NCBI GenBank assembly: GCA_965223505.1
Contig: CBDCWP010000004.1
Coordinates: 1 to 64,000, forward strand
Length of the DNA: 64,000 nt
Source: Planctomycetota bacterium
GTDB lineage: Bacteria > Planctomycetota > PLA2 > JAEUHO01
Reading direction: 5' to 3'
Made by a program: the position numbers and the translations under genes. Under the pieces are notes generated by a model. That model was not told the DNA's origin and made no database searches. It saw only the letters and a program-made list of their open reading frames with translations. This document shows, piece after piece, positions 43,077 through 61,503 of the stretch (its first letter is position 1; each line of letters begins with the position of its first letter).

Positions 43077-44414
43077 CTACGCCCCGGAGAACTGCACGCC
43101 CTCGAACGCCATCGTCGGCACGCGCATGGCCGAGCACGGATACGGATCGTTGCCGACGTGCAGCAGCCGCCCGAGCATCCGGAGGTAGTTGCCCGTGATG
43201 TTCATCTCGCCCACGGCTTCGCCGAGCTCGCCGTCCACGATGCGGTTGCCGCGAATGCCGAACGAGAAGTCGCCCGTCGTCGCGTCGGCGTTCCCGCCGG
43301 CCCAGTTGGTCACGTAGATGCCGTTGCCCACCGCCGCGAGGATGCCGTCGCGGTCGTGCTCGCCGTGCGCGAAGACCAGATTCGACGCCGAGCCGCTGGT
43401 CGGCTCCCAGCCGAGCTTGCGGCCGTAGTAGGTGTCGACGTAGAAGCTCTTCAGCACCCCGTTTTCGATCACGGCCCGCGGCCTGGCTGCGATGCCCTCG
43501 CCGTCGTAGTGATGCGAGCCCAGCCCGCGCGCGATCAACGGTTCATCGGTGATCGTGAGAAGCGCGGGCGCGATCGTCTGGTCGCGCTGCTTTTCGAGGA
43601 AGGAGCGGCCCTGCTGGATCGAGGACGCCGTGAGCGCGCCGAAGATGCGCCCGAGAAACGACGCGCCTGCTTCGCGGTCGACGACCATCGTGAAGCGGCC
43701 GGACGCGCCCTTGACCGCGCCGATGCGCCCGATCGCGCGCGCGAGCGCCTCCCGGGCGATCGCATCGTGGCTGCGCATGTCCTCGAGGTGCCGGGCGCAG
43801 CCGTAGTCGTAGGCCTCGGGGCGCTTGTCTCCCTCCCCTTGCACGGTGACCTCGGTGTACGCCGAAATGCGCGTGCCGGCACGCGCGCCGCGAAATCCGT
43901 TCGAGCTCACGCGCGCGGACGCGCCCGCGCCCATGGCGAGATGACTCGTCGCGCTGATGACGCGCTCGTCGGTGTGCGACGCGGCGTCCATCTTCGACAG
44001 CCACTCGATGCAGCGGTCGCGGTCCAGCGCTTCGACGGCGGGATCGAAGAGATCGAGGTCGACGTCCGAGCGGCCTTCGTACAGCGCCGGATCGGGGATC
44101 GTTCGATACGGATCCGGCTCCAACGCGCGGGTCAGCTTGACCGCCTCGCGCAGGAACGGCTTGAGCACCGACGGACGCAGGTCGTTGCTCTGATGCGCCG
44201 AGTACCGTCCGTCCACGTAGAGCTGCACGCCCAGCATGCGACTCGCGCTCTCCTGGACGCGCTCGATCTGGCCGTCGCGGTACGAGTACTCCGTCGAGCG
44301 GCCCGTGCTGACGCCGGTGACCACGTCGTCCGCGCCCGCCGCGAGGGCGAGGGCGAGCGCCTGCTCGGCGTCGTCGAGCAGCTCGGTCTCCGTGGCCTGG
44401 TCCGTCGCCGGCAT
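43077..44414 (-). CDS. tldE: TldE/PmbA family protein
   Basis: DGEG, NADATTGDFSFG, EMNITGN; no HExxxH; coupled to tldD. Confidence 0.9.
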   Translation of the reverse strand: MPATDQATETELLDDAEQALALALAAGADDVVTGVSTGRSTEYSYRDGQIERVQESASRMLGVQLYVDGRYSAHQSNDLRPSVLKPFLREAVKLTRALEPDPYRTIPDPALYEGRSDVDLDLFDPAVEALDRDRCIEWLSKMDAASHTDERVISATSHLAMGAGASARVSSNGFRGARAGTRISAYTEVTVQGEGDKRPEAYDYGCARHLEDMRSHDAIAREALARAIGRIGAVKGASGRFTMVVDREAGASFLGRIFGALTASSIQQGRSFLEKQRDQTIAPALLTITDEPLIARGLGSHHYDGEGIAARPRAVIENGVLKSFYVDTYYGRKLGWEPTSGSASNLVFAHGEHDRDGILAAVGNGIYVTNWAGGNADATTGDFSFGIRGNRIVDGELGEAVGEMNITGNYLRMLGRLLHVGNDPYPCSAMRVPTMAFEGVQFSGA

Positions 44415-45847
44415 CAGTCCTGCCCTCCGACGGTGAGCTGCTTGACGAGCACGGACGGGATGCCCTGGCTCACCGGAACCCCCTGGCCGTCCTTGCCGCA
44501 GGTCCAGCCACCCGAGTCGAGCTTGGCGTCGTTCGCGGCCATGGTGATGTCGCGCAGGGCATCGGGGCCGTTGCCGATGATGTTCACGTTGGCGATGGGG
44601 GAGGTGATCTTGCCGTCCTCGATCAGCCAACCGTTCTTCACGAAGAAGGTGAAGTCGCCGGCGCCGATCTGCACCTGTCCGTTCGTGAACGTCTCGGCGA
44701 CGATGCCTCGGTCGACCGACGCGATGATCTCGTCGTAGCTGTGGGGCCCGTTCTCCATGAACGTGCAGCGCATGCGCGGCATGGGGACGTGACGGAAGCT
44801 CTCGCGGCGCCCGGAGCCGGTCGGCTCGATGCCGTATTGCTTGGCGCTGATGCGGTCGTGCATGTAGCTGCGCAGGACGCCGTCCTCGATGAGAACCGTG
44901 CGCTCGACCGCGTTGCCTTCGTCGTCGACGTTGATCGAGCCGCGCTCGTGTTCGAGCGTGCCGTCGTCGACCACGGTCACGAAGTCGGGCGCGACCTTCT
45001 GGTCCATCATGGTCGAGTAGATCGATACGTTCTTGCGGTTGAAGTCGGCTTCGAGCCCGTGGCCGATGGCTTCGTGCAGCAGGATGCCGGATGCGCCGGC
45101 GGCCAGCACGACGGGCATCTCACCCGCGGGCGGCTTGCGCGCGTCGAACAGGATCATCGTGCGCTTGACCGCGTCCTCGACCAGATCGCGCAGCCGCTCG
45201 TCGGTGAACCACTCGATGCCGTCGCGGCGAACCAGGCTGGCCATGCCGGTCTGGCGTTCGTCGTTCTTCGTCGCATTGACGACGCAGTGCAGGCCCGCCA
45301 TGGGGCGACGATCGGTGAAGATCGCGCCCTCGCTCGTGGCGATGAGCACGCGGTCGTCGCTGTCGAACCAACCCGTCGAGACCTTGTCGACGGCGGGCTC
45401 GAGCGCGCGTGCCAGCTCGTCGATCCGGCGCAACAGCGGCAGCTTCTCCTCGACCGCGACGTCTTCGACGTTGCGCTGGACGGCGTAGTAGTCCGGCAGG
45501 CTGCGCACCTCGATCGCCTGCGGGGCGACCTTGGCGTTGCCGGCGGCGATGGAGGCCGCGGTGCGCGCCGCGCGGCATAGCGCCTCGACGTCGAGGTCTT
45601 CGCTGTAGGCGTAGCCGGTTTGGTCGCCGATGACGACGCGGACGCCGGCGCCCTGGTCGACGCTCGAGGAGCCGCGGCTGACGATGCCGTCCTCCATGCC
45701 GATCGACGTCGAGTGTTGGTGCTGGAAGTAGACGTCGGCGAAGTCGGCGCCGCGCTCCATGGCGGCGGCGAGGACGCGGCGAAGGAGCGGTTCGTCGATG
45801 CCGAACCAGGTGGCGAACGGGTTGTCTGTCAGTGCGGCGGTCGTCAT
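44414..45847 (-). CDS. tldD: TldD metalloprotease
   Basis: GILLHEAIGHGLEADFNRK, DDEG, GSGRRES, PMPRM, CGKDGQGVPV. Confidence 0.96.
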   Translation of the reverse strand: MTTAALTDNPFATWFGIDEPLLRRVLAAAMERGADFADVYFQHQHSTSIGMEDGIVSRGSSSVDQGAGVRVVIGDQTGYAYSEDLDVEALCRAARTAASIAAGNAKVAPQAIEVRSLPDYYAVQRNVEDVAVEEKLPLLRRIDELARALEPAVDKVSTGWFDSDDRVLIATSEGAIFTDRRPMAGLHCVVNATKNDERQTGMASLVRRDGIEWFTDERLRDLVEDAVKRTMILFDARKPPAGEMPVVLAAGASGILLHEAIGHGLEADFNRKNVSIYSTMMDQKVAPDFVTVVDDGTLEHERGSINVDDEGNAVERTVLIEDGVLRSYMHDRISAKQYGIEPTGSGRRESFRHVPMPRMRCTFMENGPHSYDEIIASVDRGIVAETFTNGQVQIGAGDFTFFVKNGWLIEDGKITSPIANVNIIGNGPDALRDITMAANDAKLDSGGWTCGKDGQGVPVSQGIPSVLVKQLTVGGQD

Positions 45848-45916
45848 GGGGAGCAGAGTCTGACAGGGGCTGCGGAGGCTGCCGAACATTCCCGGAAGGC
45901 GCCGCGCCTGATCCCG

Positions 45917-47365
45917 TCAGGTTCGCGCGCCCTGCGGCAGCTCACGGACGTATCGTCGGTAGGTCGCCAGCCAGCGCTCGGGATGGCGCAAGGGATGCAC
46001 GTATTCGAGCAGCGCGCCCGGCAGGTCGAACGCCAGGCGGTCCGGAATCGCGTTCCACACACGACAGCGACCGAAGGTCAGTGTCGCCGACGACACCTCG
46101 CATCGGAGGAACGCGAGAAGATCGCGCGCCCAACACTCGAACACGGCGACGTAGTCGCTGACGGGATCGCCCGAGTCCACGGCGACGAACGTAGAGCGCT
46201 GCGGTTCGTACGCGTATACGAATGCGCCGTCGTCCTCCCCGTCGCGCAGCGCCAGGGCGAAGGTCGGGCGCGTCTGCGCGTCGTCCAGCGCCCCGAGCGA
46301 GTACAGGTCCTTGAAGAGGTCCCTTCCATACAGGTGCGCCGCCAACGAGCGCAGCTCGACGTCGAGGGCGTCGAGCTCCTCGTCCGAGAGCGACGCCTGC
46401 GAGGTCGCCGCGTCGTAGTCTTCGAGCCACTCGACGTCGCCGACGAACGTCCGCGCGGGCCACTCGTCCTCGGGCGAAGCGGACAGGAACGGTGTGCCGT
46501 GCGCCTGCTCGACCAACTCACCGTCTATCATCACATACGTGTCGCCGGGCCGAGGCCAACACACACGGTTCGCGGGCAGGAGCGGCTCGAGCGCGAGGGC
46601 GTGCGCGCGCCCGTCCGTCGTGAAGGCATTTCCGTTGAGCCAGGCCCGATCGCCCCCGAAGCAGAATCCGCCGCCGACGACGGCCCAGGCGGCCGGCATT
46701 CGGTGGTTCGCATCGAGCCACTCGCAGATCCCGATGGCGCTTTGCACGAACGTTGCGATCTCTTCCGGATGCGGTCCGCTCCAGCTCGTGAGGAAGTGCC
46801 ACTCGCTCCAGTTGTTGGTCTGCCCCCAGACTCCGACGCGGTCGACGCGGGCACGGACCCGCTCGAGCATGTCTTGCGTCGCCGGCATGTCCACGCTGGT
46901 GAAGAAGCTGCCGTGCCCGGCCAGGTCACGTACCAGATACGGCAGGACGTCCCACTCTTCGATGATGGCGTCGCGGCGCTGATCGGCGGACATCGGCAGG
47001 AACTCGAGGCCGCCGACCGTCACGCCCTCGTCCGGGTTCAGCAGACGGACGCCGAATCCCATCTCCGCCAGGATCGTCCGCATGGCGACAGAGGAGCGCG
47101 ACGACATGTAGATGGGCACCGAGCGGTCCAGGCAGTGGAGCGAGGCCAGGTCGAAGTGCCCTTCGTGTTCGTGCGTGAGCATGACCGCGTCGAGAGCCGG
47201 GAGCGCCGATACGTCGACGCGGCGGGGCGGAAACACGCGCAGGCCGACCGCGGGCGTCAGTCCGAACGCGTCGTGCAAGAGGGGATCGACGAGGATCCGC
47301 GCATCAGCGGCCTCGAACAGCCAGCCGTGGTGGCCGAGCGCGGTCATGCGAAAGGCGTCGTTCAT
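45917..47365 (-). CDS. MBL-fold metalloenzyme paralog 1 (putative peptide-modifying enzyme)
   Basis: LGHHGW, LVDPLL, THEHEGHFD, EEWD, C-terminal ECWARDLL/YVHPLR domain. Confidence 0.8.
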   Translation of the reverse strand: MNDAFRMTALGHHGWLFEAADARILVDPLLHDAFGLTPAVGLRVFPPRRVDVSALPALDAVMLTHEHEGHFDLASLHCLDRSVPIYMSSRSSVAMRTILAEMGFGVRLLNPDEGVTVGGLEFLPMSADQRRDAIIEEWDVLPYLVRDLAGHGSFFTSVDMPATQDMLERVRARVDRVGVWGQTNNWSEWHFLTSWSGPHPEEIATFVQSAIGICEWLDANHRMPAAWAVVGGGFCFGGDRAWLNGNAFTTDGRAHALALEPLLPANRVCWPRPGDTYVMIDGELVEQAHGTPFLSASPEDEWPARTFVGDVEWLEDYDAATSQASLSDEELDALDVELRSLAAHLYGRDLFKDLYSLGALDDAQTRPTFALALRDGEDDGAFVYAYEPQRSTFVAVDSGDPVSDYVAVFECWARDLLAFLRCEVSSATLTFGRCRVWNAIPDRLAFDLPGALLEYVHPLRHPERWLATYRRYVRELPQGART

Positions 47366-49494
47366 GGCATCCGGGCTCGCAGGGTGTGAATCTCACCGAA
47401 CACGGGCCTGAGATCCGGCGCCAATCCGAGCTGAAGCCGTCTCACCGCGCGCTCGAGGTGTGGCCCGCCGTCGGCGTCGAGCTCGGGCCACCGCAGACGC
47501 AGGGTGTTGATGCCCGATCGCACGGTCGTCGCCGGCGCCAGCACGGTCGCGCGGCTCCATTGCGCACCTGTGGTGATCCGGCCCACCTCCGTGCCGTTCA
47601 GCACGAGGGCCGACGTGCGATCGTCCTCGTCGTCGCGGGGGGCACGGAGCGTGAGCGCGAGCTCCACGGCGCGAGGCTCGACGACCAGAAAGTGGAACGT
47701 GGACTCCGGCGTCAGCGCGCGCTCGTAGGAACGCGACGTCGGATATGCGGCGAACGGCGACCCGCGGAAGTACCCGCGCGCGAGATCCTGCTCGCCGCGC
47801 TCGAGTCCGCGGGCGTCGGCCAGCAGCAGTTCGAGCCGCTCGCCGGCGCCCGGTCGCCGGCGCTCGAGGACGGCGATGACCGCGCGGACCACGGGCACGT
47901 CGAGCACGTCGTAGTCCTGCCAGCGCCAGATCCGCGCCGGCATACGGTACGGCGATTCGAACACGCGTTGCTGCGCCGACGAGAGCAGTGGGGGGGCGCA
48001 GGCCGCCTTTGCCGCGACGTAGTCCGCCAGCACCTCCTCGATGCCTTCCGAGCTGTCGAGTGCCTGCTCGATCCAGTACTCGGTGCCGGCGGCGCCGTCG
48101 GTCAGCGGACGCTGAATGTGGGCGGTGTGCAGCGCGGCCAACATCGCGCCGCGGGCCTCGACCGTGTCCGCCGGACTCGGCGGCGGCGATGCACTCGCGA
48201 CCGTTCGCCAGTCCAGCGCCTGGAAGCGAGCGGGATGGCTGACTGCCAACACCTCGGCCACGACCGCGGCCATCGCGACGTGCATGCCCTCGGGCGTCAG
48301 ATGACAATAGTCGAGGAACAACCTGCGACCGGGCAGCGGCGATGCGGCATGGTCTGCGAACACGGCCGGAAGGTCGACACACAACAGGTCGTGCGCTTGC
48401 GCCGCGTCACGGATCGCTTGCCGGACCACCGGACTCGCACCGGGCGCCGATGCGCGTCCGAGCCAGCGCGACGCCTCGAGTCCGGCGAGCAGCGCGTCGC
48501 GCGCCGCCTCCGTCCGACCGATGCGAAGCAGTGTCGTACCGAGTGCCTGATGGGACGTGGCGCACGTTCCGTCGTCCAGGGCAAGCATCGCGCGGGCGGC
48601 GTTCTCCGCTGCCGCGAGATCGTCGTTCGCCAGCGCGTCGAGAACCTCTTGCTTGTGCGCGAGCCAGCGGCGATTCCGGTCGCCCGGCAACCACGACGGC
48701 GGGAGATCGTGCTCCCAATCCGTCAGGTTCGTCTCCGGCACGACCAACGCCATCGTGACTCCGGAGCGGTCCGCGATCGCGGCGAGCTCGGCGCACACGG
48801 CCTCCGCCTTCGACTTCAGGTGGTTCGTTGCGAGGCGCTGAAGGCCAGCCGGCCCTTCGGCGTCCAGCGCCGCCGCGTGTTCGTGCAGGAGCTCGAGCGA
48901 GAGGACGTCGGCGAACGCGGGCGCGTCCGGCGCCGCGGCGAGCCAGTTGTTGCCGGCGAACACGACGATCACGTCCGGAAGCAGCTGCAACGCGGTCCGC
49001 GAGACCTCCAGGACGCCCTCGTCCGTCTGATCGACCCGGCACAGGTCGATGACCTCGAACAGGTCCGCGCCCGCCGTTGCGTCCAGCTGGCCCTGCAGCA
49101 CCTGCGCGGGCGTCAGATCCGGCGCGTACAAGAACCCCGCCGCCGTCGACTCGCCGACGAGGCAGACCCGAATCGGCAGGAACGCGTCTTTGGGTCGCAG
49201 CGTCTTGGTGAGCGCCCAGTCGTCCTCGAGCTCGAGAGGATCGGGGCGAACGAAGACCAGCTCGCCGTCGACCTCCTGGGGCTCCCAGATCCCGATGGCC
49301 TCCGGGCGGTCGGCGTCCGGATCGTCTTCGTCGGAGTACGGCTCGTCGAGCCCGGCCGGCTCGACGGCGCGCGGGACGCCGACCATGCCGGTCTGTTGCA
49401 GCAGACGCAGCGTGCGCAGTCCTTCCTCCGTTGCCAAGAGCTGCGCGAGCTCTTCGCAGGCGGCCAACGGAGGTTGTCGTCGGTCTCGGGACAT
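47362..49494 (-). CDS. SGNH/GDSL-type hydrolase with TPR-like helical insertion
   Basis: Block I VCLVGESTAAG, block III VFAGNN, block V FLDYCH. C-terminal part of ORF 47362..51036, ATG at 49494. Confidence 0.72.
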   Translation of the reverse strand: MSRDRRQPPLAACEELAQLLATEEGLRTLRLLQQTGMVGVPRAVEPAGLDEPYSDEDDPDADRPEAIGIWEPQEVDGELVFVRPDPLELEDDWALTKTLRPKDAFLPIRVCLVGESTAAGFLYAPDLTPAQVLQGQLDATAGADLFEVIDLCRVDQTDEGVLEVSRTALQLLPDVIVVFAGNNWLAAAPDAPAFADVLSLELLHEHAAALDAEGPAGLQRLATNHLKSKAEAVCAELAAIADRSGVTMALVVPETNLTDWEHDLPPSWLPGDRNRRWLAHKQEVLDALANDDLAAAENAARAMLALDDGTCATSHQALGTTLLRIGRTEAARDALLAGLEASRWLGRASAPGASPVVRQAIRDAAQAHDLLCVDLPAVFADHAASPLPGRRLFLDYCHLTPEGMHVAMAAVVAEVLAVSHPARFQALDWRTVASASPPPSPADTVEARGAMLAALHTAHIQRPLTDGAAGTEYWIEQALDSSEGIEEVLADYVAAKAACAPPLLSSAQQRVFESPYRMPARIWRWQDYDVLDVPVVRAVIAVLERRRPGAGERLELLLADARGLERGEQDLARGYFRGSPFAAYPTSRSYERALTPESTFHFLVVEPRAVELALTLRAPRDDEDDRTSALVLNGTEVGRITTGAQWSRATVLAPATTVRSGINTLRLRWPELDADGGPHLERAVRRLQLGLAPDLRPVFGEIHTLRARMP

Positions 49495-49502
49495 GTCGCT
49501 CG

Positions 49503-51266
49503 TCAAATGAAGGTGTAGACCGTCTCGCTGATTCGCCCGCGGCGGTCGGAAGCCCGTAGCCGGCGATGGTATTCCAGTGTGTGTGTCCACGACGAGGGCA
49601 GCATCTCCCGGTCGATGACGAAGTCCTCTAGGACCAGCGCGTCCAGGCGTGCGTCGACGGCGCACAGCAGGGCTTCGGCCGGCGTGCGCACGATCGGCTC
49701 GCCGCGGACGTTGAACGACGTGTTCACCAACACGGGGCAGCCCGTCAGTTCTTCGAACGCCGAAAGCAGCGCGGCGAACCTGGGCGCGACCGATGGATCC
49801 ACCGTCTGGGGGCGCGCCGATCCGTCGACGTGCGTGATCGCCGGCAGGTCGAGCTTCGAGTCGACCCGGCACGTCTCCAACATGAACGGAGACGGGTGAT
49901 CGAGCGCGAAGTGTTCGGCGGTGCGATCGGCGAGCACCGCCGGCGCGAACGGCCGGAACCCCTCCCGTTTCTTGATCCGCTCGTTCAGGCGGCTCTGCAT
50001 CTGCGGGTCGCGTGGGTCCGCGAGGATGCAGCGCGCGCCGAGCGCGCGGGGGCCGAACTCCATTCGGCCCTGGAACCAACCTACGACCTGTCCGGCCGCG
50101 AGTCGTCGCGCGACGTCGGCGACGAGCTGTCCTTCGTCGTGCCGGAACGCGGCTGCCTCGATCCCGACGCCCTCCAGCAGCCGCGCGACGTCGTCGCGCG
50201 CGAACGACGGACCGAGGCAGACGTCCTCCAGTCGCCGAGTGTCCGGTCGATGCCCCGTGAGTCGCACATGCGCCAGCGCGGCGGCGCCGAGCGCGCCGCC
50301 CGCATCGCCCGCGGCCGGCTGGACGAACACGTTGCCGAACGGGCCCTCCCGCGCGATGCGACCGTTTGCGACGCAGTTGAGCGCCACGCCGCCGGCCATG
50401 CAGAGGTTGTCCGAGGCGACGAGCCCGGCGAGACGGGAGACGGCGTCGAGCAGGATGTCTTCGAGCACGACCTGCAGACTGCGAGCGATGTCCTTGTGTC
50501 GTTGGCGCAGTGGCTCGTCGGGCCGTCGTGCCGGCCCGCCGAGCAGGTCGCAGAGCGCGTCGGTGTACATGCGATCTGCGCGACGAAATTCGAAGTACGA
50601 GAGGTCGAGCGCGTAGTGTCCGGCGCCGTCCGGCGTGCTCAGCGCGCGAATCGCATCGACGCAGGTCGGTCGCCCGTAGGGAGCGAGTCCCATCACCTTG
50701 TACTCGCCACTGTTGACAGCGAACCCGAGGTATCCGGTGATCGTGCTGTACAGCAGGCCCAGCGAGTGGGGGAAACGCACCTCGTCGAGCAACTCGATCT
50801 CGGCGCCCTGAGCGCGTCCGTAGGTCGTCGTCGCCCACTCGCCGACGCCGTCGACCGTCAGCACCGCCGCGTCGTCGAACCCGGAGAAGAAGTACGCGCT
50901 CGCCGCGTGCGACATGTGATGCTCGAAGGACTCGATCCGTCCCTCGTGGCCGAGGAGCTCGCGAATGTCCCGTTCCGGCCGTCCCGGGTCGATCCAGCGA
51001 AGATCCTGCGCTCCGCCGAGCGGACAGCCTGCCCAAATCTGTCTAGCCAGCTTGAGCGGCGGCGACTCGTAGTATGCGACACAGTCCACGTCGTCGATGT
51101 CGATCGCCCCCTCGTCCAGGCAGAATCGGAATGCATCCACGGGAAGCCGCCCGTCGTGCTTGATGCGCGAGAAGCGCTCCTGGGCGGCGGCGGCGACGAG
51201 CACGCCGTCCGAGATCAGGCAGCATGCGGACTCGTGGAAGTACATGGAGAGACCGATGATGTTCAC
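49503..51266 (-). CDS. O-carbamoyltransferase (NodU/CmcH/TobZ family)
   Basis: HESACC, QERFSRIKHD, HHMSHAAS, DGVGE, EYKVMGLAPYG, GGVALNC, FGPRALG, KKREGFRPFAP, HVDGSARPQ, NTSFN. Confidence 0.96.
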   Translation of the reverse strand: MNIIGLSMYFHESACCLISDGVLVAAAAQERFSRIKHDGRLPVDAFRFCLDEGAIDIDDVDCVAYYESPPLKLARQIWAGCPLGGAQDLRWIDPGRPERDIRELLGHEGRIESFEHHMSHAASAYFFSGFDDAAVLTVDGVGEWATTTYGRAQGAEIELLDEVRFPHSLGLLYSTITGYLGFAVNSGEYKVMGLAPYGRPTCVDAIRALSTPDGAGHYALDLSYFEFRRADRMYTDALCDLLGGPARRPDEPLRQRHKDIARSLQVVLEDILLDAVSRLAGLVASDNLCMAGGVALNCVANGRIAREGPFGNVFVQPAAGDAGGALGAAALAHVRLTGHRPDTRRLEDVCLGPSFARDDVARLLEGVGIEAAAFRHDEGQLVADVARRLAAGQVVGWFQGRMEFGPRALGARCILADPRDPQMQSRLNERIKKREGFRPFAPAVLADRTAEHFALDHPSPFMLETCRVDSKLDLPAITHVDGSARPQTVDPSVAPRFAALLSAFEELTGCPVLVNTSFNVRGEPIVRTPAEALLCAVDARLDALVLEDFVIDREMLPSSWTHTLEYHRRLRASDRRGRISETVYTFI

Positions 51267-52723
51267 GCCGACCTCCGCGGGCCGGGCAGACGCGGCCCGT
51301 CGTCGTGAAGCGCGGCGACGATCGAACGATAGCGCTCGCGATACGCATCCGGACGACGCAACGGATGCACGTACTCGAACAGCGGCTTGTTGAACTCGAA
51401 CGCGAAGGCACGGGGATTCGCATTCCACATGCGCGAGCGTCCGAAGCAGAGCGCCGTCGTCGACATCCGGCAGGTCAACATGGCCAGGAGGTCCGTCGCC
51501 CAGCACTCGTAGACGGCGAGGAACTCCTTCGGCGGATCGGGTGACGCGACGCGCACGAACGAGCAATGCTCCGGTCGGTAGGCGAAGGCGAGCGGCTGCT
51601 CGCCGTCACGAAGCGACAAGGCGAAGGTCGGGATCCGTCCCGCCGCGTCCGGCACGGACAGGCCGCAGATGGCGCGGTGAAGCGAACCACCGTGCAGGCT
51701 GCGCGCCAGCCCGGCCAACGCAGCTTCGAGCGCCGGGACGTGCGAACGCTCCAGCACCTCGCGACCGGAGGCCGGGCGGTAGTCCTCCAACCAAGCGACG
51801 TCGCCGCGATGCTCCCGCGCCGGCCACGCGGCCCTCGGCGCGACGCGCACGAACGGCGAGCTCGGTCGGACCTCGGCGACCTCGCCGTTCTTCAGAATCA
51901 ACGTTTCACCGGGGACCGACGGGCGAACCGTGACGCCCGGGAGCTGCAGCGCCAGCGCGCGCGCGGCCTCGTCGTTGGTCCAGGGGAAGACCTCGTGATT
52001 GAGGAACGCTTGCTCCCCCCGGAAGCAGAAGCTCTCGCCGGTGACCAGCAGCTGCTCGGGCGCGGTCCACTCATGCGCCATCGCGGTGTGGTAGTCGACG
52101 ATCGATCCCACGAAGCTGGACAGGCTGAAACGGTCCGGACGCGCCCACCGGGCCTGGAAGTGCCAGTCCGTGTTGTTGTTGGTGTACACCCAGAGCCCCG
52201 GTCGCTCGACGAAGGAGCGTGCGCTGCGCCACATCGAAGGCGTCGGCGCCATGTCGATGTGCGTGAAGAGGTTGCCGTGTCCGTCGCGATCGCGAACCAC
52301 GAACGGCAGCACGTCCCACTCCTCGACGATGCCGTTCTCCACCTGGTCCGCGGTCATCGGAAGCACGCTCAGATCCGCGCCGATCTCGACGGGACGTCCC
52401 GGTCTCGTGAGCCGAACGGAGAAGCCCATGTCGGTCAGAATCTCGCGCATCGCCGGGGACGAGCGGGACGGCATCAAGATCGGCGTGCTGCGATCCACCA
52501 TGTCGATCGACGCGAGGTCGAAGTGGTCCTCGTGCTCGTGCGTGAGCAGCACGGCGTCAAGAGGCGGCGCAGCATCGAAGTCGAATCGCCGCGGCGGATG
52601 TACGGCGAGTCCTACGGCTTCGGTCGCGGCGAACGTGTCGCGCAGCAACGGGTCGACGAGCAGGGTGGAGGATGCCGTCGACACGACCCATCCGTTGTGT
52701 CCGACGTGGGTGACGGAAAACAT
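51263..52723 (-). CDS. MBL-fold metalloenzyme paralog 2
   Basis: VGHNGW, LVDPLL, THEHEDHFD (HxHxDH), EEWD, ECWATDLL, YVHPLR. Confidence 0.82.
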   Translation of the reverse strand: MFSVTHVGHNGWVVSTASSTLLVDPLLRDTFAATEAVGLAVHPPRRFDFDAAPPLDAVLLTHEHEDHFDLASIDMVDRSTPILMPSRSSPAMREILTDMGFSVRLTRPGRPVEIGADLSVLPMTADQVENGIVEEWDVLPFVVRDRDGHGNLFTHIDMAPTPSMWRSARSFVERPGLWVYTNNNTDWHFQARWARPDRFSLSSFVGSIVDYHTAMAHEWTAPEQLLVTGESFCFRGEQAFLNHEVFPWTNDEAARALALQLPGVTVRPSVPGETLILKNGEVAEVRPSSPFVRVAPRAAWPAREHRGDVAWLEDYRPASGREVLERSHVPALEAALAGLARSLHGGSLHRAICGLSVPDAAGRIPTFALSLRDGEQPLAFAYRPEHCSFVRVASPDPPKEFLAVYECWATDLLAMLTCRMSTTALCFGRSRMWNANPRAFAFEFNKPLFEYVHPLRRPDAYRERYRSIVAALHDDGPRLPGPRRSA

Positions 52724-52727
52724 GACG

Positions 52728-53933
52728 TCAAAGCGCCTTCCGATAGCGCTCGGCGAAACGCTCGGGGAACCGATGCGGGTGGATGTGTGCTTCCAAGGCG
52801 CTCGCGAGCTCGAATGTGAACCGTGGATGCGCGACGGAGGTGCTCTGCGAGCCGGTCCGCGTCAGCGTCTCCGGCAGGATCTCGGCACGCAACGTCATCA
52901 ACAAGTCCGTTGCCCAGCACTCGAAAACGGCGACGTAGTCGTCGATCGTTCGACTGTCGTGAAGCAGCCGGAACGCGCATGCGTGCGGCGCGTACTCGAA
53001 CACGTGCCCTTCGCGATCCGTACTTCGCAAGAAGAGTGCAACCGTTGGACGCTTGCCCGGATGCTCCTGGGGCGAGAGCGAGTAGAGCTCGCGAAACAAA
53101 CGCTTGCCGTACAGGTGTCTTGCCAATGTGTTCAGCTCAGCGCGAAGCTCCGCGATCTCTCCGTCCGAGAGCGCGCCGCGTCCGCACAGCGGACCGTTCT
53201 CCAGCGTGTCTTCGATGGGTTCCCGGGCGTCCACATAGGCGTCATCGCTCTCGTGTTCGACGACCGTTCCACGGCGGACGCCGAAGCGCTGCCCCGGAGC
53301 CCACGCGCGCACGTCGTCTTGCGGCAGGAGCTGCGCGAGAACGCCGGCTTGTGCCTGCGCGCCCGTCGCCGGTCCATCGGCGATCAACAGGCCCGCCGGG
53401 CGTGCCCACTGCCGGCTCATGCGCCGGTGCGCCCCGGCCAGCGCCAGGATGCCTTCATGCGCCGGCGCCGGGTACACCACCAACCCGGGGACGTCGAGTG
53501 CGGCGCTCGCCGCCGCGCACTCCACGGATGAGGGCGCTCCGTCGATCGGCATGAAGAGACTGCCCTCCGCGTCGGCGTCGCGAACGACGCACCCGAGCGC
53601 ACCCCACGCTCGGCCGGCGTCGGCGATGTCCGCCACCGTGTCGACGCGCAGCGTTCCGATGTCCAGCGTCTCTCCACCGTGCACACGCTGCGTCGCGAAG
53701 CCCAGCTCCTCGATGACGACGACCATTGCGGTGGACGCATGCGCGGACACGTAGATCGGGACGCTGCGATCCAGCCCCGCGAGCGACGTAGGATCGAACG
53801 CTCGTTCGCGTGGCAGAAACACGGCGTCAGGCGCGTGTCCGCGGTCCACTCGGAACGCGTCACCGATGATCAGGTGCCCGCGACGCCCGCGCACCGACCA
53901 GGTGCGACTGCCCAGGTACGTGGCCGTGAACAT
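52728..53933 (-). CDS. MBL-fold paralog 3, metal ligands lost (pseudo-enzyme or scaffold)
   Basis: Homologous to paralogs 1 and 2 (LDRSVPIY, LARHLYG, VFECWATDLL, HPHRFPERF), but the HxHxDH position reads PRERAFD. Confidence 0.75.
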   Translation of the reverse strand: MFTATYLGSRTWSVRGRRGHLIIGDAFRVDRGHAPDAVFLPRERAFDPTSLAGLDRSVPIYVSAHASTAMVVVIEELGFATQRVHGGETLDIGTLRVDTVADIADAGRAWGALGCVVRDADAEGSLFMPIDGAPSSVECAAASAALDVPGLVVYPAPAHEGILALAGAHRRMSRQWARPAGLLIADGPATGAQAQAGVLAQLLPQDDVRAWAPGQRFGVRRGTVVEHESDDAYVDAREPIEDTLENGPLCGRGALSDGEIAELRAELNTLARHLYGKRLFRELYSLSPQEHPGKRPTVALFLRSTDREGHVFEYAPHACAFRLLHDSRTIDDYVAVFECWATDLLMTLRAEILPETLTRTGSQSTSVAHPRFTFELASALEAHIHPHRFPERFAERYRKAL

Positions 53934-53963: not shown

Positions 53964-54206
53964 CTAGGAGGAGACGTTGTCGTTGGTGTTGCCGTTGTTG
54001 AGTCGGTTCTGCACGGCCCACAACGCGTTGACGGCAGGTGTGTTCTTCTGACCGATGGCCCAGAGGGCGTTCAGGGCCGTGTTGGTGCCCCCGATGGCGT
54101 TGCTGGCGCTGGGGTGTCGCATCCCCCCGCGCATCTCCCGCAACTCTTTCTTGGGGATCGTCCGGGTCTTGCCCGTCAACTGGACGCGCCGTGCTCGCTT
54201 CTTCAT
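53964..54206 (-). CDS. RiPP/bacteriocin precursor A with double-glycine leader (80 aa)
   Basis: Leader ends IPKKELREMRGG. The 52-aa core has two NALWA repeats and 11 Asn. GAGAGG RBS. Confidence 0.85.
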   Translation of the reverse strand: MKKRARRVQLTGKTRTIPKKELREMRGGMRHPSASNAIGGTNTALNALWAIGQKNTPAVNALWAVQNRLNNGNTNDNVSS

Positions 54207-54402: not shown

Positions 54403-54608
54403 CTAGAAAACCTGGTTCGCGAAATGCACCGCGTCCTGCACGCCGTTGCTTGCGGGGTTGATGAAGACGGAGTAGATGTCGCCTTCGGAGGCGGGAAGAG
54501 GGCGCTCGGCCAACCCGAAGTAACCACGGCAACGCCGGCGGCGTTGTCACTGAGGCCCCCGCGGGTCAAACGCATGTCCTTCTTGGAAAGCTGCTTCGTG
54601 AAGTCCAT
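54403..54608 (-). CDS. RiPP/bacteriocin precursor B with double-glycine leader, apparently frameshifted (predicted 68 aa)
   Basis: Leader MDFTKQLSKKDMRLTRGG. GC3-rich codons switch frame near 54493-54495 and end at TAG 54403-54405. The uncorrected ORF runs to 54306. Confidence 0.65.
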
Positions 54609-54763
54609 CCTCGTCAAGTGGTTTCAACCAGCCGAGCGGGATGCTCGACCGGGGGTGGGAGTCTAGCAGGCCACCGTTGAAGCCCTTTGCGGCGAAGCGT
54701 CCGAATCGAAGACCAAGACGACGTTCACTCTGCGCGACACTCTCCGTTCACTCAGCGCGGCCG

Positions 54764-57055
54764 TCACTTGTTCCTCGGCGGCGTGTTCGCGCGGACCGCT
54801 TCGATGAGGACGTCGCCGGTGGTCTGCAGGCTCGCCCGCGATACCCGCTCCACGCGGTCCTCCGACGTGTGTCGGAATCGATTGCGACCGGCGCGTCGAA
54901 CGGGATCGGCGCCGCCGAAGTCGAAGTCGCACAGCAACGCCGCCGGGATGCCGGCGCGAAGAAACGGGATGTGGTCGTTGCGCACGGCGATCGGAATGCT
55001 GTGGGCGCGCGCTATCTCGAAGTAGCGTCCGTAGCCCAACCGTGCTCCGGCGTCGAGCAGCGATGCCGCCACCGACGTCGTGGAGCGTAGATCGTCGGTG
55101 AACTGCAGTCGCTCGTCGCCGACCATGTCGCAGACGACGACCGCGATCAGCCGGTCGACCTCGCCGGCGGCGACGACGTGCTCGACGAATGCGCGGCTGC
55201 CGTACAAGCCGTGGCGCGGACCCGAACGCCCCAGCGCCTCCTTGCCGTCGAAGAACGCGATCCGCACCGCCGGACGGGGCTTCATGGCCGCCAGGACACG
55301 CGCGCACTCGATCAGGACGGCGGCGCCAGAAGCGCCTTCGTTCGCGCCGGTGAAACCCGACACCCCCTCCAGCCGCTTCGTGTCGAGGTGCGTCGCGAGA
55401 AGAACGTATCGTTCGTCACGCTCGCCTGGCAACGAGGCGAGCGTGTTCTTCAGGACCCGTCCCCCGCCCGGCGTTTGCACTGCGACGTCCTCGATCTCCA
55501 CTGACCAACCCGCGGCCTCGAGCTGCGCGCGCACGTACCCGCGTGCGTTCTCCAGGGCCTCGCTGCCGAGGGGACGCGGACCCAGCTCGGCCAGGGCGAC
55601 GAGGTCCGCCATCGAACGATCGGCGTCGAACGGCGTTCGCGCAGCGGGCGCCGGTCGCGGCGAGAGCGGCGGCGGCGCTTCGGTCGGCGTCGTCGGCGTC
55701 ACCGCGGCGCCTCCGCTCAGGCCGAACAGGCGACGCACCGGTTCGAAGAGCAAGCTGACGATCCGCGGTCGCTCGGTCACGATCTCCGCGGAGAGCGTCA
55801 GCCCTGCGCGCAGTGCAAGCCCCTCCGGTGCGTCGCCTTGCACACGCTGTACGGCGAGGCGTCCGGTGAACACCGACGCGCCCGTCGTAGGGTCCTCCGT
55901 CGGTACCAGCGCGACACTCTCCAACCGTGCCTTCACGACGCCGAAGCGCTCGAACGGATACGCGTCGAGCTTGATCTTGCAGAGCGCGCCGGGTCGCAGA
56001 GCCGCGGCGTCGCGATTGGCGAACGTCGCGGTCGCCGCCACGTGGGGGGACGTGGAGATCGAAAATGCAGGCGTGTCCGCCTCGACCCGGTCGCCCGGAA
56101 CGATCGGCGCCGCGAAGTTGATCAACCCGCTCACCGGCGCATGCAGGACCAGCAGCTCGAGCACGCGCTCGCTCGCGTCGATCTCCGCCTCGAGCTTCTC
56201 GATGTCCGCGCGCGCCGTGTCGCGGGTGGCCCGCGTACGCGCGGCCGCGTCGCGCAGCGCGGCCTGCGCGGATTCCAGTCGGCTCTTCGCGGCGGCGACG
56301 CGTTCGTCGGCTTCGATGGTGATCACGTCGAGCGCCTGACGCGCCTCGCGCAACGCCGCTTTCGCACCCTCGACGAGTCCGCGCTGCGCGTCACGCTTGG
56401 CGATCGCCGCGTCGTGCGTCTCGCCGTCGATCAGCTTCTTCTTGTACAACGTCGTCGCGCGCTCGGCCGCCTTGTCGTCCCTACGAAGGGTGGCTTCGGC
56501 GGCGGTCAGCGCCGCCTGCTTGGCCTCGAGGCGTGCGCGCTCGAGCTCCACCCGGCGCGGAATGACCGTCTCGCGATGACGCAGCTCTCGCGTGTGCGCG
56601 TCGCGCGCTGCGCGCCAGTCTTCGATCGTCTCGGCGGCGGCGACGTCGGCGACGGCCTTCGCTTCGCCCGACGCCAGGAGGGCCGCCAGCGCGGTGACGG
56701 TCTCGTCGAGGGTCGTCCACTGCCGGTGCGCGCGACCGTGGTCCTTGCGCAGCCGCTCCAGACGCCCGCGTTCGGCTGCGTCTTCCAACCGCAGGAGCAG
56801 CTGTCCGGCTCGCACCTGCTCGCCTTCGGCCGCGTAGACCTCCGCGACGACGCCGGCGGTCGAGAGCCGTACGTCCGTGCGCTCGTCCACGGCGACGAGC
56901 AGCCCGCGGCCGACGACGACCCGATCGACGCGCACGACCGTCACGAACGTTCCGACCGCGCCCAGCAGGAGGAGCAACAGCCACAACAGCAGCCGACGCC
57001 CGCGCGCGCCGACCGCGGGCTTGGCGGGACGGGGCAGGATGGCGCCGCCGCTCAT
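54764..57055 (-). CDS. HlyD-family secretion adaptor fused to a C-terminal M28 (glutaminyl-cyclase-like) domain
   Basis: TM anchor, EGEQVRAGQLLLRL, coiled coil, LHAPVSG, LDAYPFERFG; Pro-rich linker; then THLDTK, GANEGASG, FFDGKE, GSR, DMVGD, NDHIPF, HTSED. Confidence 0.85.
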   Translation of the reverse strand: MSGGAILPRPAKPAVGARGRRLLLWLLLLLLGAVGTFVTVVRVDRVVVGRGLLVAVDERTDVRLSTAGVVAEVYAAEGEQVRAGQLLLRLEDAAERGRLERLRKDHGRAHRQWTTLDETVTALAALLASGEAKAVADVAAAETIEDWRAARDAHTRELRHRETVIPRRVELERARLEAKQAALTAAEATLRRDDKAAERATTLYKKKLIDGETHDAAIAKRDAQRGLVEGAKAALREARQALDVITIEADERVAAAKSRLESAQAALRDAAARTRATRDTARADIEKLEAEIDASERVLELLVLHAPVSGLINFAAPIVPGDRVEADTPAFSISTSPHVAATATFANRDAAALRPGALCKIKLDAYPFERFGVVKARLESVALVPTEDPTTGASVFTGRLAVQRVQGDAPEGLALRAGLTLSAEIVTERPRIVSLLFEPVRRLFGLSGGAAVTPTTPTEAPPPLSPRPAPAARTPFDADRSMADLVALAELGPRPLGSEALENARGYVRAQLEAAGWSVEIEDVAVQTPGGGRVLKNTLASLPGERDERYVLLATHLDTKRLEGVSGFTGANEGASGAAVLIECARVLAAMKPRPAVRIAFFDGKEALGRSGPRHGLYGSRAFVEHVVAAGEVDRLIAVVVCDMVGDERLQFTDDLRSTTSVAASLLDAGARLGYGRYFEIARAHSIPIAVRNDHIPFLRAGIPAALLCDFDFGGADPVRRAGRNRFRHTSEDRVERVSRASLQTTGDVLIEAVRANTPPRNK

Positions 57056-61502: not shown

Positions 61503-61503
61503 C

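What the first reader, a model, noticed from the sequence alone, without database searches (positions are those of the whole stretch)
45917..53933. MBL-fold triplet with graded metal sites: HEHEDH, HEHEGH and a ligand-less copy
The three paralogs share an N-terminal MBL fold and an uncharacterised C-terminal domain (LYG/LHG, ECWAxDLL, HP(L/H)RxP). Paralog 2 has canonical HxHxDH, paralog 1 has HxHxGH, and paralog 3 has lost the motif and sits directly after precursor A. Paralogs 1 and 2 have an acidic EEWD about where MBL hydrolases have a His ligand, followed by (V/I)DM. Established: MBL-fold oxygenases exist, for example the diiron beta-hydroxylase CmlA, which uses carboxylate-rich ligation. 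Inference: these are diiron hydroxylases acting on the peptide, with the inactive copy serving as leader-binding or scaffold subunit.
Basis: partly seen in the sequence, partly recalled or inferred. Interest (0 to 1): 0.72.

Follow-up and report, generated by a model that had tools for sequence, protein, structure and literature searches.

The report
Three MBL–SCP2 paralogues in peptide cluster
Three old copies of an unstudied two-part metalloenzyme, one of them with a dead active site, sit in one operon behind a small precursor-peptide gene and probably mark an undescribed kind of peptide natural-product pathway.

Summary
Three minus-strand genes (45917-47365, 51263-52723, 52728-53933) are paralogues carrying HEHEGH, HEHEDH and no motif.

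New findings:
- The shared C-terminal domain has an SCP2-like (sterol-carrier) fold.
- The family is large: 339 cluster representatives at E<=1e-30. Most members are single-copy with canonical HEHEDH plus a motif-3 His at position 127.
- All three window copies fall in one 42-row clade. There His127 is Gln and Asp66 is mostly Gly. In 6 of its 7 distinct loci with DNA in hand, the gene follows a short precursor-like ORF with a Trp in its tail.
- HEHEGH is therefore the normal working form of a peptide-linked clade, not a half-decayed site.
- EEWD is not a substitute for the His ligand. It lies 8 residues after that position, and Glu135 is kept in 274 of 275 rows, including those that keep His127.
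- Paralogue 3 is the only degenerate member seen. It keeps 31 of 37 conserved C-domain positions but 25 of 50 N-domain ones, as expected of a non-catalytic binding partner.

CmlA-like diiron chemistry is not supported over hydrolysis: fold scores are tied, and NAPE-PLD is the best profile match. The reaction type stays open.

The parts
45917..47365 (-). Paralogue 1 (482 aa): MBL domain with HEHEGH and Gln127, plus SCP2-like C-domain. Belongs to the Gly66/Gln127 clade; nearest relatives are P0007 and P0013.
   Evidence: Its ATG overlaps the stop of the upstream gene by 4 nt.
47362..49494 (-). About 710-aa hypothetical protein with a weak GDSL/SGNH-like N-terminal part. The family is widespread and unnamed.
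   Evidence: Lipase_GDSL_2 E 1.2e-5, below its cut-off; Atlas 0.98 to unnamed ~700-aa clusters; start codon.
49503..51266 (-). Carbamoyltransferase (NodU/CmcH type). Its GTG start overlaps the end of paralogue 2.
   Evidence: Carbam_trans_N 2.2e-70, Carbam_trans_C 2.2e-67.
51263..52723 (-). Paralogue 2 (486 aa): MBL domain with HEHEDH and Gln127, plus SCP2-like C-domain. Lies on the basal Asp66/Gln127 branch with P0009 and P0011.
   Evidence: (AF2 pLDDT 95.7).
52728..53933 (-). Paralogue 3 (401 aa): metal-site residues lost (H62R, H64R, E65A, residues 66-67 deleted, E135A, D137G, N183P). Asp157 and the C-domain motifs are kept. Probably a non-catalytic partner.
53964..54206 (-). Precursor A (80 aa): basic leader ending MRGG; the core holds two NALWA motifs.
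   Evidence: no family match in Pfam or NCBIfam.
54403..54617 (-). Second precursor-like reading frame (leader ending TRGG). Codon bias switches frame near 54515.
   Evidence: contigs from two samples agree with the window here.
54764..57055 (-). HlyD-type membrane-fusion protein fused to an M28 peptidase.
57052..60060 (-). Peptidase-containing ABC exporter (cNMP-binding + C39 peptidase + ABC). Expected to cleave after the Gly-Gly of the leader.
43077..45889 (-). TldD/PmbA peptidase pair directly downstream of paralogue 1.
60153..62307 (-). Sigma-54-dependent response regulator and histidine kinase at the head of the gene string.

Best explanation
**What they are.** The three genes are old paralogues of an uncharacterised two-domain protein family. 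The N-terminal domain has a metallo-beta-lactamase fold (residues 1-295). It is packed against a C-terminal SCP2-like domain (about 320-470) that carries the invariant ECWxxDLL and HPLR motifs.

**Where they sit in the family.** All three belong to one clade in which the motif-3 His is replaced by Gln and the motif-2 Asp is mostly replaced by Gly. In that clade the gene normally lies directly behind a short precursor-like ORF. The leader of that ORF ends in R-(A/G)-G or G-G, and its tail contains Trp.

**Proposed roles (inferred).**
- Paralogues 1 and 2 are metal-dependent enzymes that modify the exported peptide, most likely at or near its Trp residues. They would use a remodelled site: His62, His64, His67, Glu135, Asp157, and possibly C-domain Asp411 and His453.
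- The SCP2-like domain would hold the hydrophobic peptide segment.
- Paralogue 3 has lost the catalytic site but keeps the SCP2-like domain. It would act as a non-catalytic peptide-binding or partner subunit. This is analogous to, but not homologous with, CgnE beside CgnB in crocagin biosynthesis.
- The carbamoyltransferase, the GDSL-like protein, TldD/PmbA, the C39 exporter and the M28 fusion would then tailor, trim and export the product.

**Shown here:** homology, folds, motif states, clade structure, gene order, upstream peptides.

**Inferred:** peptide as substrate, Trp as target, role of paralogue 3.

**Open:** whether the chemistry is oxidative (slightly favoured) or hydrolytic.
For: **Fold and family.**
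- The paralogue 2 model has pLDDT 95.7 and pTM 0.93.
- The C-domain model has pLDDT 90.1.
  - Foldseek ranks 1-12 are all SCP2 proteins or the SCP2-like C-domains of the alkylsulfatases SdsA1 and YjcS (best E 7.4e-4).
  - A language-model lead agrees.
- Family size: 5430 representatives at E<=1e-3 and 339 at E<=1e-30.
- Invariance across 275 rows: Glu135 274, Asp157 275, Asp411 271.

**Clade.** A 42-row clade has SH-aLRT support 100. The paralogue 2 group (Asp/Gln) is basal, and the other 39 rows are all Gly66 except one Ser and paralogue 3. Gly66 co-varies with Gln127.

**Link to a peptide.**
- Of 8 Gly66 loci (7 distinct), 6 have an upstream same-strand peptide ORF 52-156 nt away. GC3, where it was printed, is 0.73-0.97. 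Each holds a Trp after the leader-end motif.
- Three of these peptides (L004, L122, L093) are clearly homologous to each other.
- L007 shows a full operon: GG-leader peptide, a 445-aa protein, the family gene, a 408-aa protein with a PqqD/RRE-like end (E 8.4e-5), and a divergent C39 exporter.
- In the window the whole string is translationally coupled. Gaps run from a few bases of overlap to 30 nt between precursor A and TldD.

**Paralogue 3.**
- It is the only one of 172 rows without the motif.
- It keeps 31 of 37 clade-conserved C-domain positions against 25 of 50 N-domain positions.
- Its ORF is intact and ends 4 nt before paralogue 2 starts.
Against: **Structure.** No tool returned model coordinates. 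The position of Glu135, Asp137, Asp411 and His453 relative to the His cluster was therefore not seen.

**Upstream peptides.**
- The bare leader-end motif is barely enriched: 10 of 95 upstream ORFs against 400 of 5713 other ORFs.
- The peptide link therefore rests on position, codon bias, mutual homology and the Trp pattern. All of these were noticed after the fact.
- None of the peptides matches a curated precursor family. The one partial exception is L007, which is weak and below its cut-off.

**Context of the wider family.**
- Most family members are single genes: 49 of 49 genome loci and 75 of 80 metagenome loci with one hit.
- Their neighbours are heterogeneous and often lipid-related: PLD, WS/DGAT, carboxylesterase, TonB receptors, GMC oxidoreductases.
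- The family as a whole is therefore not a RiPP family, and SCP2 domains classically bind lipids.

**Paralogue 3.**
- It has no orthologue in two searches.
- It sits on a very long branch (2.35).
- It could be decaying rather than newly functional.

**Other.** One Gly66 locus (L002) shows no upstream peptide. No expression data were obtained.
Confidence: 0.5

Rival explanations
1. One reading: paralogues 1 and 2 are CmlA-like diiron hydroxylases with carboxylate-rich ligation that hydroxylate the peptide. The new hydroxyl group would perhaps feed the carbamoyltransferase. Paralogue 3 is the leader-binding subunit.
For: - FrsH and CmlA are the second and third best solved-structure matches to the family profile (1.5e-7 and 3e-6). 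They appear among the top Foldseek hits (ranks 2, 7, 11).
- The conserved acidic residues Glu63, Glu65, Asp/Glu134, Glu135 and Asp137 lie next to the His cluster in sequence.
- A review passage states that Fe-dependent MBL oxidoreductases show more acidic ligand sets (PMC7785958, passages).
- The operon encodes a carbamoyltransferase but no other oxygenase. In crocagin, hydroxylation and carbamoylation occur in one pathway (PMC10070186, passages).
- Redox-type neighbours occur elsewhere: a cytochrome b5-domain protein (L003), 2OG oxygenases (L009, L028) and a CxxCxxCC protein (6 adjacent loci).
Against: - NAPE-PLD is the best profile match (1.3e-9).
- The profile alignment to CmlA covers only the first ~120 residues.
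- The residue matching CmlA Glu377 (by spacing and alignment) is Gln127, not EEWD.
- Paralogue 1 and most of its clade lack Asp66 as well, which leaves too few ligands for a canonical two-metal site.
- Domain order differs: in CmlA the MBL part is residues ~250-532, behind an N-terminal domain.
- Carbamoylation does not need a prior hydroxylation; Ser, Thr, Lys or the N-terminus could accept the group.
Confidence: 0.2
2. Paralogues 1 and 2 are hydrolases, as most MBL-fold enzymes are. Possible substrates are an ester, an amide or the leader of the precursor or product. Possible roles include de-esterification, ring opening or closure, leader removal after the R-(A/G)-G site, or self-protection.
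For: - Pfam Lactamase_B_2 and Lactamase_B_3 membership.
- The best profile match is the hydrolase NAPE-PLD.
- Most of the wider family keeps six of the seven canonical hydrolase ligands: HEHEDH, His127 and Asp157.
- The only solved proteins in these searches that combine an MBL domain with an SCP2-like C-domain are hydrolases, the type III alkylsulfatases SdsA1, YjcS and Pisa1.
Against: - The clade tied to peptides has lost two canonical ligands (Asp66 and His127).
- The operon already encodes four peptidases (C39, M28, TldD, PmbA) and a GDSL-like hydrolase.
- I recall no MBL-fold leader peptidase, and none appeared in the search listings.
Confidence: 0.22
3. The paralogues do not act on the peptide. 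Like other SCP2-linked enzymes they handle a lipid or another hydrophobic small molecule, and their place in the operon reflects another role or chance.
For: - SCP2 domains classically bind lipids. Several of the top structural matches are lipid-bound SCP2 proteins.
- Many single-copy relatives lie beside PLD, WS/DGAT, carboxylesterase or acyltransferase genes.
Against: - All three copies in the genome lie in this one translationally coupled operon.
- The closest clade is precursor-adjacent in 6 of 7 distinct loci.
- 0 of 40 related genomes carry a full-length member, so it is not a housekeeping gene of this lineage.
Confidence: 0.08

Closest known systems
CmlA / FrsH non-heme diiron beta-hydroxylases (PDB 4jo0, 5kik, 8a90)
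   Same: - Detectable profile similarity over the first ~100-120 residues, including GH...VDP...THxHxDH.
- Loss of the motif-3 His.
- Role in natural-product biosynthesis.
   Different: - In CmlA and FrsH the MBL domain is C-terminal, behind a ~250-residue domain. Here it is N-terminal and followed by an SCP2-like domain.
- Their substrate is an amino acid on an NRPS carrier protein (PMC7794379, passages). No NRPS gene lies in this operon.
- Their motif 2 is intact HxHxDH, and the motif-3 position is Glu (recalled; the PDB title 'E377D mutant' appears). Here it is Gln127, and mostly Gly66.
NAPE-PLD and UlaG-like Lactamase_B_2 hydrolases (PDB 4qn9, 2wym, 3rpc, 6brm)
   Same: - Best profile match (1.3e-9).
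- Same Pfam family for paralogues 1 and 2.
- The THEHEDH wording also occurs in ordinary UlaG-like MBL proteins.
   Different: - They keep the motif-3 and motif-5 His ligands.
- They lack the EEWD-type motif, reading G-K-Y-R at those columns.
- They lack an SCP2-like domain.
Type III alkylsulfatases SdsA1 / YjcS / Pisa1 (PDB 2cg2, 4pdx, 2yhe)
   Same: - They are the only solved proteins found in these searches that combine an MBL catalytic domain with a C-terminal SCP2-like domain.
   Different: - They are ~620-660 residues long with an extra dimerisation domain.
- No Alkyl_sulf Pfam hit for the paralogues.
CgnB / CgnE of crocagin biosynthesis (PMC10070186)
   Same: - Paralogous metalloenzyme-derived proteins in a RiPP operon that acts on a Trp-containing core.
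- One copy has an intact metal site and the other a disrupted one; the disrupted copy recruits the precursor.
- Genomes with a single copy keep the site intact.
- A carbamoyltransferase is present in the cluster (passages).
   Different: - They are not homologous. CgnB and CgnE are aminopeptidase-T-like and do not appear in PDB sequence searches with the paralogues.
- The oxidant there is a separate 2OG dioxygenase.
PqqB of PQQ biosynthesis (recalled, not tested here)
   Same: - An MBL-fold protein in a ribosomal-peptide pathway, reported as an iron-dependent hydroxylase.
   Different: This is a lead only.

Membership tests
Metallo-beta-lactamase fold superfamily (Pfam Lactamase_B_2, PF12706) | Alpha-beta/beta-alpha MBL fold | tested here: met
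   [not shown]
Metallo-beta-lactamase fold superfamily (Pfam Lactamase_B_2, PF12706) | Profile score above Pfam's gathering cut-off | tested here: met
   Paralogue 1 scores 36.6 bits and paralogue 2 scores 32.5 bits against a cut-off of 27. Paralogue 3 has no MBL hit at E<=0.1, so it fails this feature taken alone.
Metallo-beta-lactamase fold superfamily (Pfam Lactamase_B_2, PF12706) | Motif 2 HxHxDH | tested here: inconclusive
   Paralogue 2 has HEHEDH (met). Paralogue 1 has HEHEGH (Asp lost). Paralogue 3 has RERA-- (lost)..
Metallo-beta-lactamase fold superfamily (Pfam Lactamase_B_2, PF12706) | Motif 3 His | tested here: not met
   Column 127 holds His in 84 of 172 family rows, and canonical UlaG-like proteins align their His there. 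It is Gln in paralogues 1 and 2 and Ala in paralogue 3.
Metallo-beta-lactamase fold superfamily (Pfam Lactamase_B_2, PF12706) | Motif 4 bridging Asp | tested here: met
   Asp157 is present in all three paralogues and in 275 of 275 rows.
Metallo-beta-lactamase fold superfamily (Pfam Lactamase_B_2, PF12706) | Motif 5 His | tested here: inconclusive
   No conserved His aligns after strand 224-229; the columns read Gly/Gly. The UlaG-like sequences did not align this far. His453 of the C-domain could substitute, but that was not testable without coordinates.
CmlA/FrsH diiron beta-hydroxylases | Specific sequence kinship beyond the general MBL fold | tested here: inconclusive
   [not shown]
CmlA/FrsH diiron beta-hydroxylases | Intact HxHxDH plus a carboxylate at the motif-3 position (Glu377 in CmlA; residue number recalled) | tested here: not met
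   Only paralogue 2 has HxHxDH. The matching column is Gln127 in paralogues 1 and 2. The correspondence rests on alignment and spacing, not on a superposition.
CmlA/FrsH diiron beta-hydroxylases | N-terminal ~250-residue domain before the MBL domain; carrier-protein-bound substrate | tested here: not met
   The CmlA and FrsH MBL parts are chain residues ~250-532. Here the MBL domain starts at residue 1, and the extra domain is C-terminal and SCP2-like. No NRPS domains occur in the operon.
CmlA/FrsH diiron beta-hydroxylases | Two iron ions and O2-dependent hydroxylation | not testable with these tools
   Needs metal analysis and enzyme assays.
Type III alkylsulfatases (SdsA1 type) | MBL domain plus C-terminal SCP2-like domain | tested here: met
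   The C-domain model matches SCP2 proteins and the C-domains of SdsA1 and YjcS. This is fold-level only.
Type III alkylsulfatases (SdsA1 type) | Alkyl-sulfatase dimerisation and C-terminal Pfam domains; ~620-660 residues | tested here: not met
   No such Pfam hit at E<=0.1. Lengths are 482, 486 and 401 aa.
RiPP maturases that use a PqqD-like recognition element (RRE) | RRE/PqqD-like domain in the enzyme or a partner in the operon | tested here: not met
   No PqqD hit in the three paralogues or in the other operon proteins scanned. An RRE-like end was seen only in a neighbour of the relative L007.
Crocagin CgnB/CgnE peptide-binding proteins | Aminopeptidase-T-like fold and sequence kinship | tested here: not met
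   No CgnB or CgnE chain appears among PDB sequence matches at E<=1. The fold of the paralogues is MBL. The likeness is functional analogy only.

The most novel reading that the evidence does not exclude
The Gly66 clade of MBL-SCP2 proteins is the class-defining maturase of an undescribed family of ribosomal peptides. These peptides have leaders ending R-(A/G)-G or G-G and cores built around a Trp, in the smallest cases only 4-6 residues long.

The enzyme would use a metal site that has shed two canonical MBL ligands, together with an SCP2-like domain re-purposed from lipid binding to peptide binding, to oxidise or cross-link the Trp.

In this operon three anciently diverged subtypes would work as a hetero-oligomer. 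The dead subunit would present the precursor to the two live ones.
Probability: 0.2. Interest if true: 0.82.

Novelty: new variant of a known kind. Interest (0 to 1): 0.62.

Why it matters
**Possible new pathway.** If the reading is right, this is a new enzyme architecture (MBL fold plus SCP2-like fold) serving as the core enzyme of a ribosomal-peptide pathway. It comes with a recognisable precursor signature, which could be used for genome mining.

**Other points of interest.**
- It would be a second, independent case of the 'live enzyme plus dead paralogue that holds the peptide' arrangement described for crocagin.
- It gives a natural series for asking how many ligands an MBL site can lose and still work: Asp/His, then Asp/Gln, then Gly/Gln, then none.
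- The single-enzyme loci with 4-6-residue cores are simple systems for finding the reaction.

**Literature.** I found no description of such a system in three full-text searches. Those searches cover open-access papers and bioRxiv only.

Tried and rejected
**Complex prediction.** Paralogue 3 (with an alignment) plus precursor A returned 'no answer', score 0.00. This is neither support nor evidence against binding.

**Unavailable or uninformative tools.**
- No tool gave model coordinates, and /data holds FASTA files only. The distance of EEWD from the metal site could therefore not be measured.

**Searches that found nothing.**
- PDB sequence search with paralogue 3: no match at E<=1.
- Homologue search with paralogue 3: no orthologue. 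Three hits at E<=1e-10 besides itself, the two with precomputed Pfam domains being ordinary MBL-bearing family members.
- Earlier-findings look-ups by place, sequence and words: nothing on this locus.
- Sequencing runs: no RNA holder listed.

**Literature.**
- The CmlA ligand set was not obtained. One paper id was not held and the searches gave no structural description. The Glu377 numbering is therefore recalled.

**Ideas dropped.**
- I first suspected the crocagin CgnB/CgnE family; that was rejected on fold.
- I first aligned the motif-3 His with Ala125 by eye (after). The wider alignments corrected this to column 127.
- A regular-expression screen for leader-end motifs was not discriminating: 10 of 95 against 400 of 5713.
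- All-against-all clustering of neighbour ORFs over 49 loci gave no conserved partner gene. The largest non-self cluster covered 6 loci.


Full report
**1. Observation**

The window has high G+C, about 0.69. Codon-position bias picks out a string of minus-strand genes from about 62300 down to 43000.

- Paralogue 1 (45917-47365, 482 aa): HEHEGH, EEWD, VDM.
- Paralogue 2 (51263-52723, 486 aa): HEHEDH, EEWD, IDM.
- Paralogue 3 (52728-53933, 401 aa): LPRERA in place of the motif, and no EEWD.
- All three: LYG/LHG, ECWAxDLL and HP(L/H)RxP in the C-terminal part.

Pairwise BLASTP confirms the relationship. Paralogues 1 and 2 share 47% identity (E 4e-139). Paralogue 3 shares 31-32% with each (E 2e-40 and 1e-48).

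Pfam places paralogues 1 and 2 in Lactamase_B_2 and Lactamase_B_3, above the cut-offs. Paralogue 3 has no MBL hit. Paralogue 3 begins 30 nt after an 80-aa ORF whose leader ends MRGG.

**2. Surroundings**

The operon reads as follows:
- a histidine kinase and a sigma-54 response regulator;
- an ABC exporter with cNMP-binding and C39 peptidase domains;
- a HlyD protein fused to an M28 peptidase;
- a second precursor-like frame;
- precursor A;
- paralogue 3, then paralogue 2;
- a carbamoyltransferase;
- a ~710-aa GDSL-like hypothetical protein;
- paralogue 1;
- TldD and PmbA, then RtcB.

From precursor A to TldD the genes are separated by at most 30 nt or overlap. This is a ribosomal-peptide (RiPP)-like operon.

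The genome holds exactly three family members, all of them here. None of 40 related genomes has a full-length member; the only two matches cover the first 77-129 residues. The cluster is therefore patchy in this lineage. An earlier AI note calls the genome an uncultured planctomycete; I did not test that.

**3. Folds**

*Full-length paralogue 2.* An AlphaFold2 model built on a 51-row alignment has pLDDT 95.7 and pTM 0.93.
- Foldseek finds only MBL-fold proteins. The top ranks mix hydrolases (3rpc, TM1162, NAPE-PLD, SaxA, Igni18) with CmlA and FrsH, at similar E-values of 8e-9 to 5e-8.
- Rows within 1 Z unit count as tied, so fold comparison does not separate oxygenase from hydrolase.
- The family profile against PDB sequences gives NAPE-PLD 1.3e-9, FrsH 1.5e-7, CmlA 3e-6 and SaxA 1.2e-4. 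All of these alignments cover only the first 77-126 residues.

*C-terminal part alone.* Residues 300-486 were folded with a 50-row alignment (pLDDT 90.1). The result is an SCP2-like domain.
- Foldseek ranks 1-12 are SCP2 proteins or the SCP2-like C-domains of the alkylsulfatases SdsA1 and YjcS (best E 7.4e-4).

It usually binds hydrophobic ligands.

**4. The family**

A word-based search found 50 proteins. A full HMMER scan of 1.84 billion representatives found 5430 at E<=1e-3 and 339 at E<=1e-30.

I aligned 172 of the 190 stored proteins. I kept those of 380-560 aa and left out P0004. Motif 2 reads:

| Motif 2 | Rows |
|---|---|
| HEHEDH | 88 |
| HEHEGH | 29 |
| HEHDDH | 25 |
| HEHPDH | 11 |
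| RERA-- (paralogue 3) | 1 |

The remaining 18 rows have other single-residue variants or gaps. RERA-- is the only degenerate form.

Column 127 is His in 84 rows, Gln in 34 and Leu in 17. Canonical UlaG-like MBL proteins picked up in the scan align their motif-3 His to this column. Position 127 is therefore the motif-3 position. EEWD (134-137) lies eight residues later, in columns where ordinary MBL proteins read G-K-Y-R.

I then combined these rows with the locus genes, giving 275 rows. Some protein and locus rows are identical, so the rows are not all independent.
- Glu135 is present in 274.
- Asp157 is present in 275.
- Asp411 is present in 271.
- Glu135 is present in all 152 rows that keep Asp66 and His127.

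EEWD is thus a universal family feature and not a replacement for a lost His. Gly66 goes with Gln127: 22 of the 31 Gly66 rows show both with Asn183, and only 3 complete rows are Asp/Gln.

**5. Tree**

A FastTree of 275 rows places all three paralogues in one clade of about 42 rows (support 97). I then ran an IQ-TREE 'quick' tree of those 42 rows plus 14 outgroup rows that I chose from the Asp/His majority. It shows:
- the clade at SH-aLRT 100;
- paralogue 2 with P0009 and P0011 (all Asp66/Gln127) as the basal branch (95);
- the other 39 rows together (82), all Gly66 except one Ser and paralogue 3;
- paralogue 1 with P0007 and P0013 (95);
- paralogue 3 on a very long branch (2.35) inside a 15-row group (97), so its place is unsure.

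The simplest reading is a sequence of states: Asp/His in the wider family, then Asp/Gln, then Gly/Gln, with a few returns to Gly/His. The three window genes are old subtypes, not recent tandem duplicates.

By the contig lengths listed, P0009, P0012 and P0023 share one contig, and P0015 and P0020 share another. Other multi-copy operons therefore exist. I could not fetch them.

**6. Link to peptides**

Most relatives are single genes with varied neighbours.
- All 49 near-full-length genome loci have one copy.
- 75 of 80 metagenome loci show a single hit.
- Neighbours of the 80 genes scanned include PLD, WS/DGAT with a carboxylesterase, GMC oxidoreductases, TonB receptors, LanB dehydratases (L008, L024), C39 exporters (L007, L048), and a Trp halogenase with a 2OG oxygenase (L009).
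- No partner gene is conserved across loci.

The Gly66 loci are different. Of 109 locus genes, 8 are Gly66, and L001 and L086 are the same gene. Six of the 7 distinct loci have a short same-strand ORF 52-156 nt upstream. GC3, where it was printed, is 0.73-0.97.
- The leader ends in R-A-G or G-G-G.
- The tails are PRWV-like, TPSWGS-like, ...THTDNWR... (three homologous peptides) and a longer Trp-rich one.
- Every one holds Trp.
- L002 shows no such ORF.

Precursor A of the window ends its leader in MRGG and carries NALWA twice.

By an ad hoc filter, seven Asp/His loci also have upstream peptides: L089, L096, L098, L101, L039, L007 and L103. L007 forms a complete operon with an RRE-like neighbour and a C39 exporter.

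Two cautions apply.
- The bare motif is hardly enriched upstream: 10 of 95 ORFs against 400 of 5713.
- None of the peptides matches a curated precursor family above its cut-off.

The case therefore rests on position, codon bias, mutual homology and the Trp pattern, all noticed post hoc.

**7. Paralogue 3**

It has lost His62, His64, Glu65, residues 66-67, Asp126, Glu135, Asp137 and Asn183. It keeps Asp157 and the C-domain residues Glu406, Cys407, Trp408, Asp411, His453 and Arg456.

I counted positions conserved at 90% or more in 32 clade rows.
- N-domain: it keeps 25 of 50.
- C-domain: it keeps 31 of 37.
- Its identity to paralogue 1 is 27.5% in the N-domain and 41.3% in the C-domain.

It has no orthologue in two searches. 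The pattern fits a non-catalytic subunit whose SCP2-like domain is still under constraint. A slowly decaying copy is not excluded. The one complex prediction gave no answer.

**8. Mechanism**

*Shown:* the folds, the motif states, the clade, the gene order and the upstream peptides.

*Inferred:*
- Paralogues 1 and 2 modify the peptide.
- The SCP2-like domain holds a hydrophobic, Trp-bearing segment.
- Paralogue 3 binds the peptide or a partner enzyme.

*The chemistry is open.*
- For oxidation: the FrsH and CmlA profile matches, the acidic residues beside the His cluster, the carbamoyltransferase with no other oxygenase in the operon, and redox-type neighbours elsewhere.
- For hydrolysis: the NAPE-PLD match, Pfam membership, the canonical ligand set of the wider family, and the alkylsulfatase architecture.
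- Against a CmlA-type two-iron site in particular: Gln at the Glu377-equivalent column, Gly66 in paralogue 1 and most of the clade, and the reversed domain order.

**9. Comparison with known systems, and novelty**

- The proteins are members of the MBL superfamily at the Lactamase_B_2 level.
- They are not members of the CmlA/FrsH family or the alkylsulfatase family.
- They resemble the crocagin CgnB/CgnE pair only by analogy (PMC10070186, passages read).
- Three full-text searches found no MBL-fold maturase of this kind. Subscription journals are not covered.

I rate it a new variant of a known kind. It is a known superfamily in a new two-domain form, apparently recruited as the core enzyme of an undescribed peptide pathway. 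Here it occurs as a live, live and dead triplet.

Noticed in passing
window 54403-54617 (-): A second precursor-like frame starts MDFTKQ..., with a leader ending TRGG. Codon bias moves to another frame near 54515, and that frame ends at 54403 just before a terminator-like hairpin. Contigs from three runs of two samples match the window here without any indel. The frame break is therefore not a one-off assembly error. It may be a broken gene or something odder.
   Followed up: partly
window 54764-57055 (-): HlyD-type membrane-fusion protein fused to an M28 aminopeptidase domain. This is an unusual pairing that suggests trimming of the peptide during export.
   Followed up: no
window 57052-60060 (-): The C39-peptidase ABC exporter carries an extra N-terminal cyclic-nucleotide-binding domain.
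   Followed up: no
window 47362-49494 (-): A ~710-aa protein with a weak GDSL/SGNH-like part belongs to a widespread unnamed family (Atlas score 0.98 to ~700-aa clusters, commonest in Acidobacteriota and Pseudomonadota). Relatives often pair GDSL with TPR repeats.
   Followed up: partly
L019:9684-9941, L022:2408-2665, L026:3489-3746, L090:2694-2951, L091:121-378, L109:833-1090: In six loci of the Asp66/His127 type, an 86-aa CxxCxxCC protein (Pfam PF03692, E 1.6e-4, just below its cut-off) lies directly upstream of the family gene. It may be a metal or redox partner.
   Followed up: partly
L009:1421-12348: A family gene sits between a Trp halogenase (upstream) and a 2OG oxygenase (downstream), with a carbamoyltransferase 5.6 kb away. 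No upstream peptide ORF was seen there.
   Followed up: partly
L007:5840-12687: Compact RiPP-like operon: a divergent C39 exporter, a 55-aa GG-leader peptide with a GPGWGPD core, a 445-aa protein with an HxD...H oxygenase-like end, the family gene, and a 408-aa protein with a PqqD/RRE-like C-terminus.
   Followed up: partly
proteins P0106-P0184: A subgroup of about 39 shorter members (435-466 aa) has Trp at column 9 and Met at column 183, lacks residues ~187-246, and has a hydrophobic residue instead of Glu406. It is a distinct branch of the family.
   Followed up: no
window 41727-43001 (-): An RtcB RNA ligase gene follows the TldD/PmbA pair on the same strand. Whether it belongs to the operon is unknown.
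   Followed up: no
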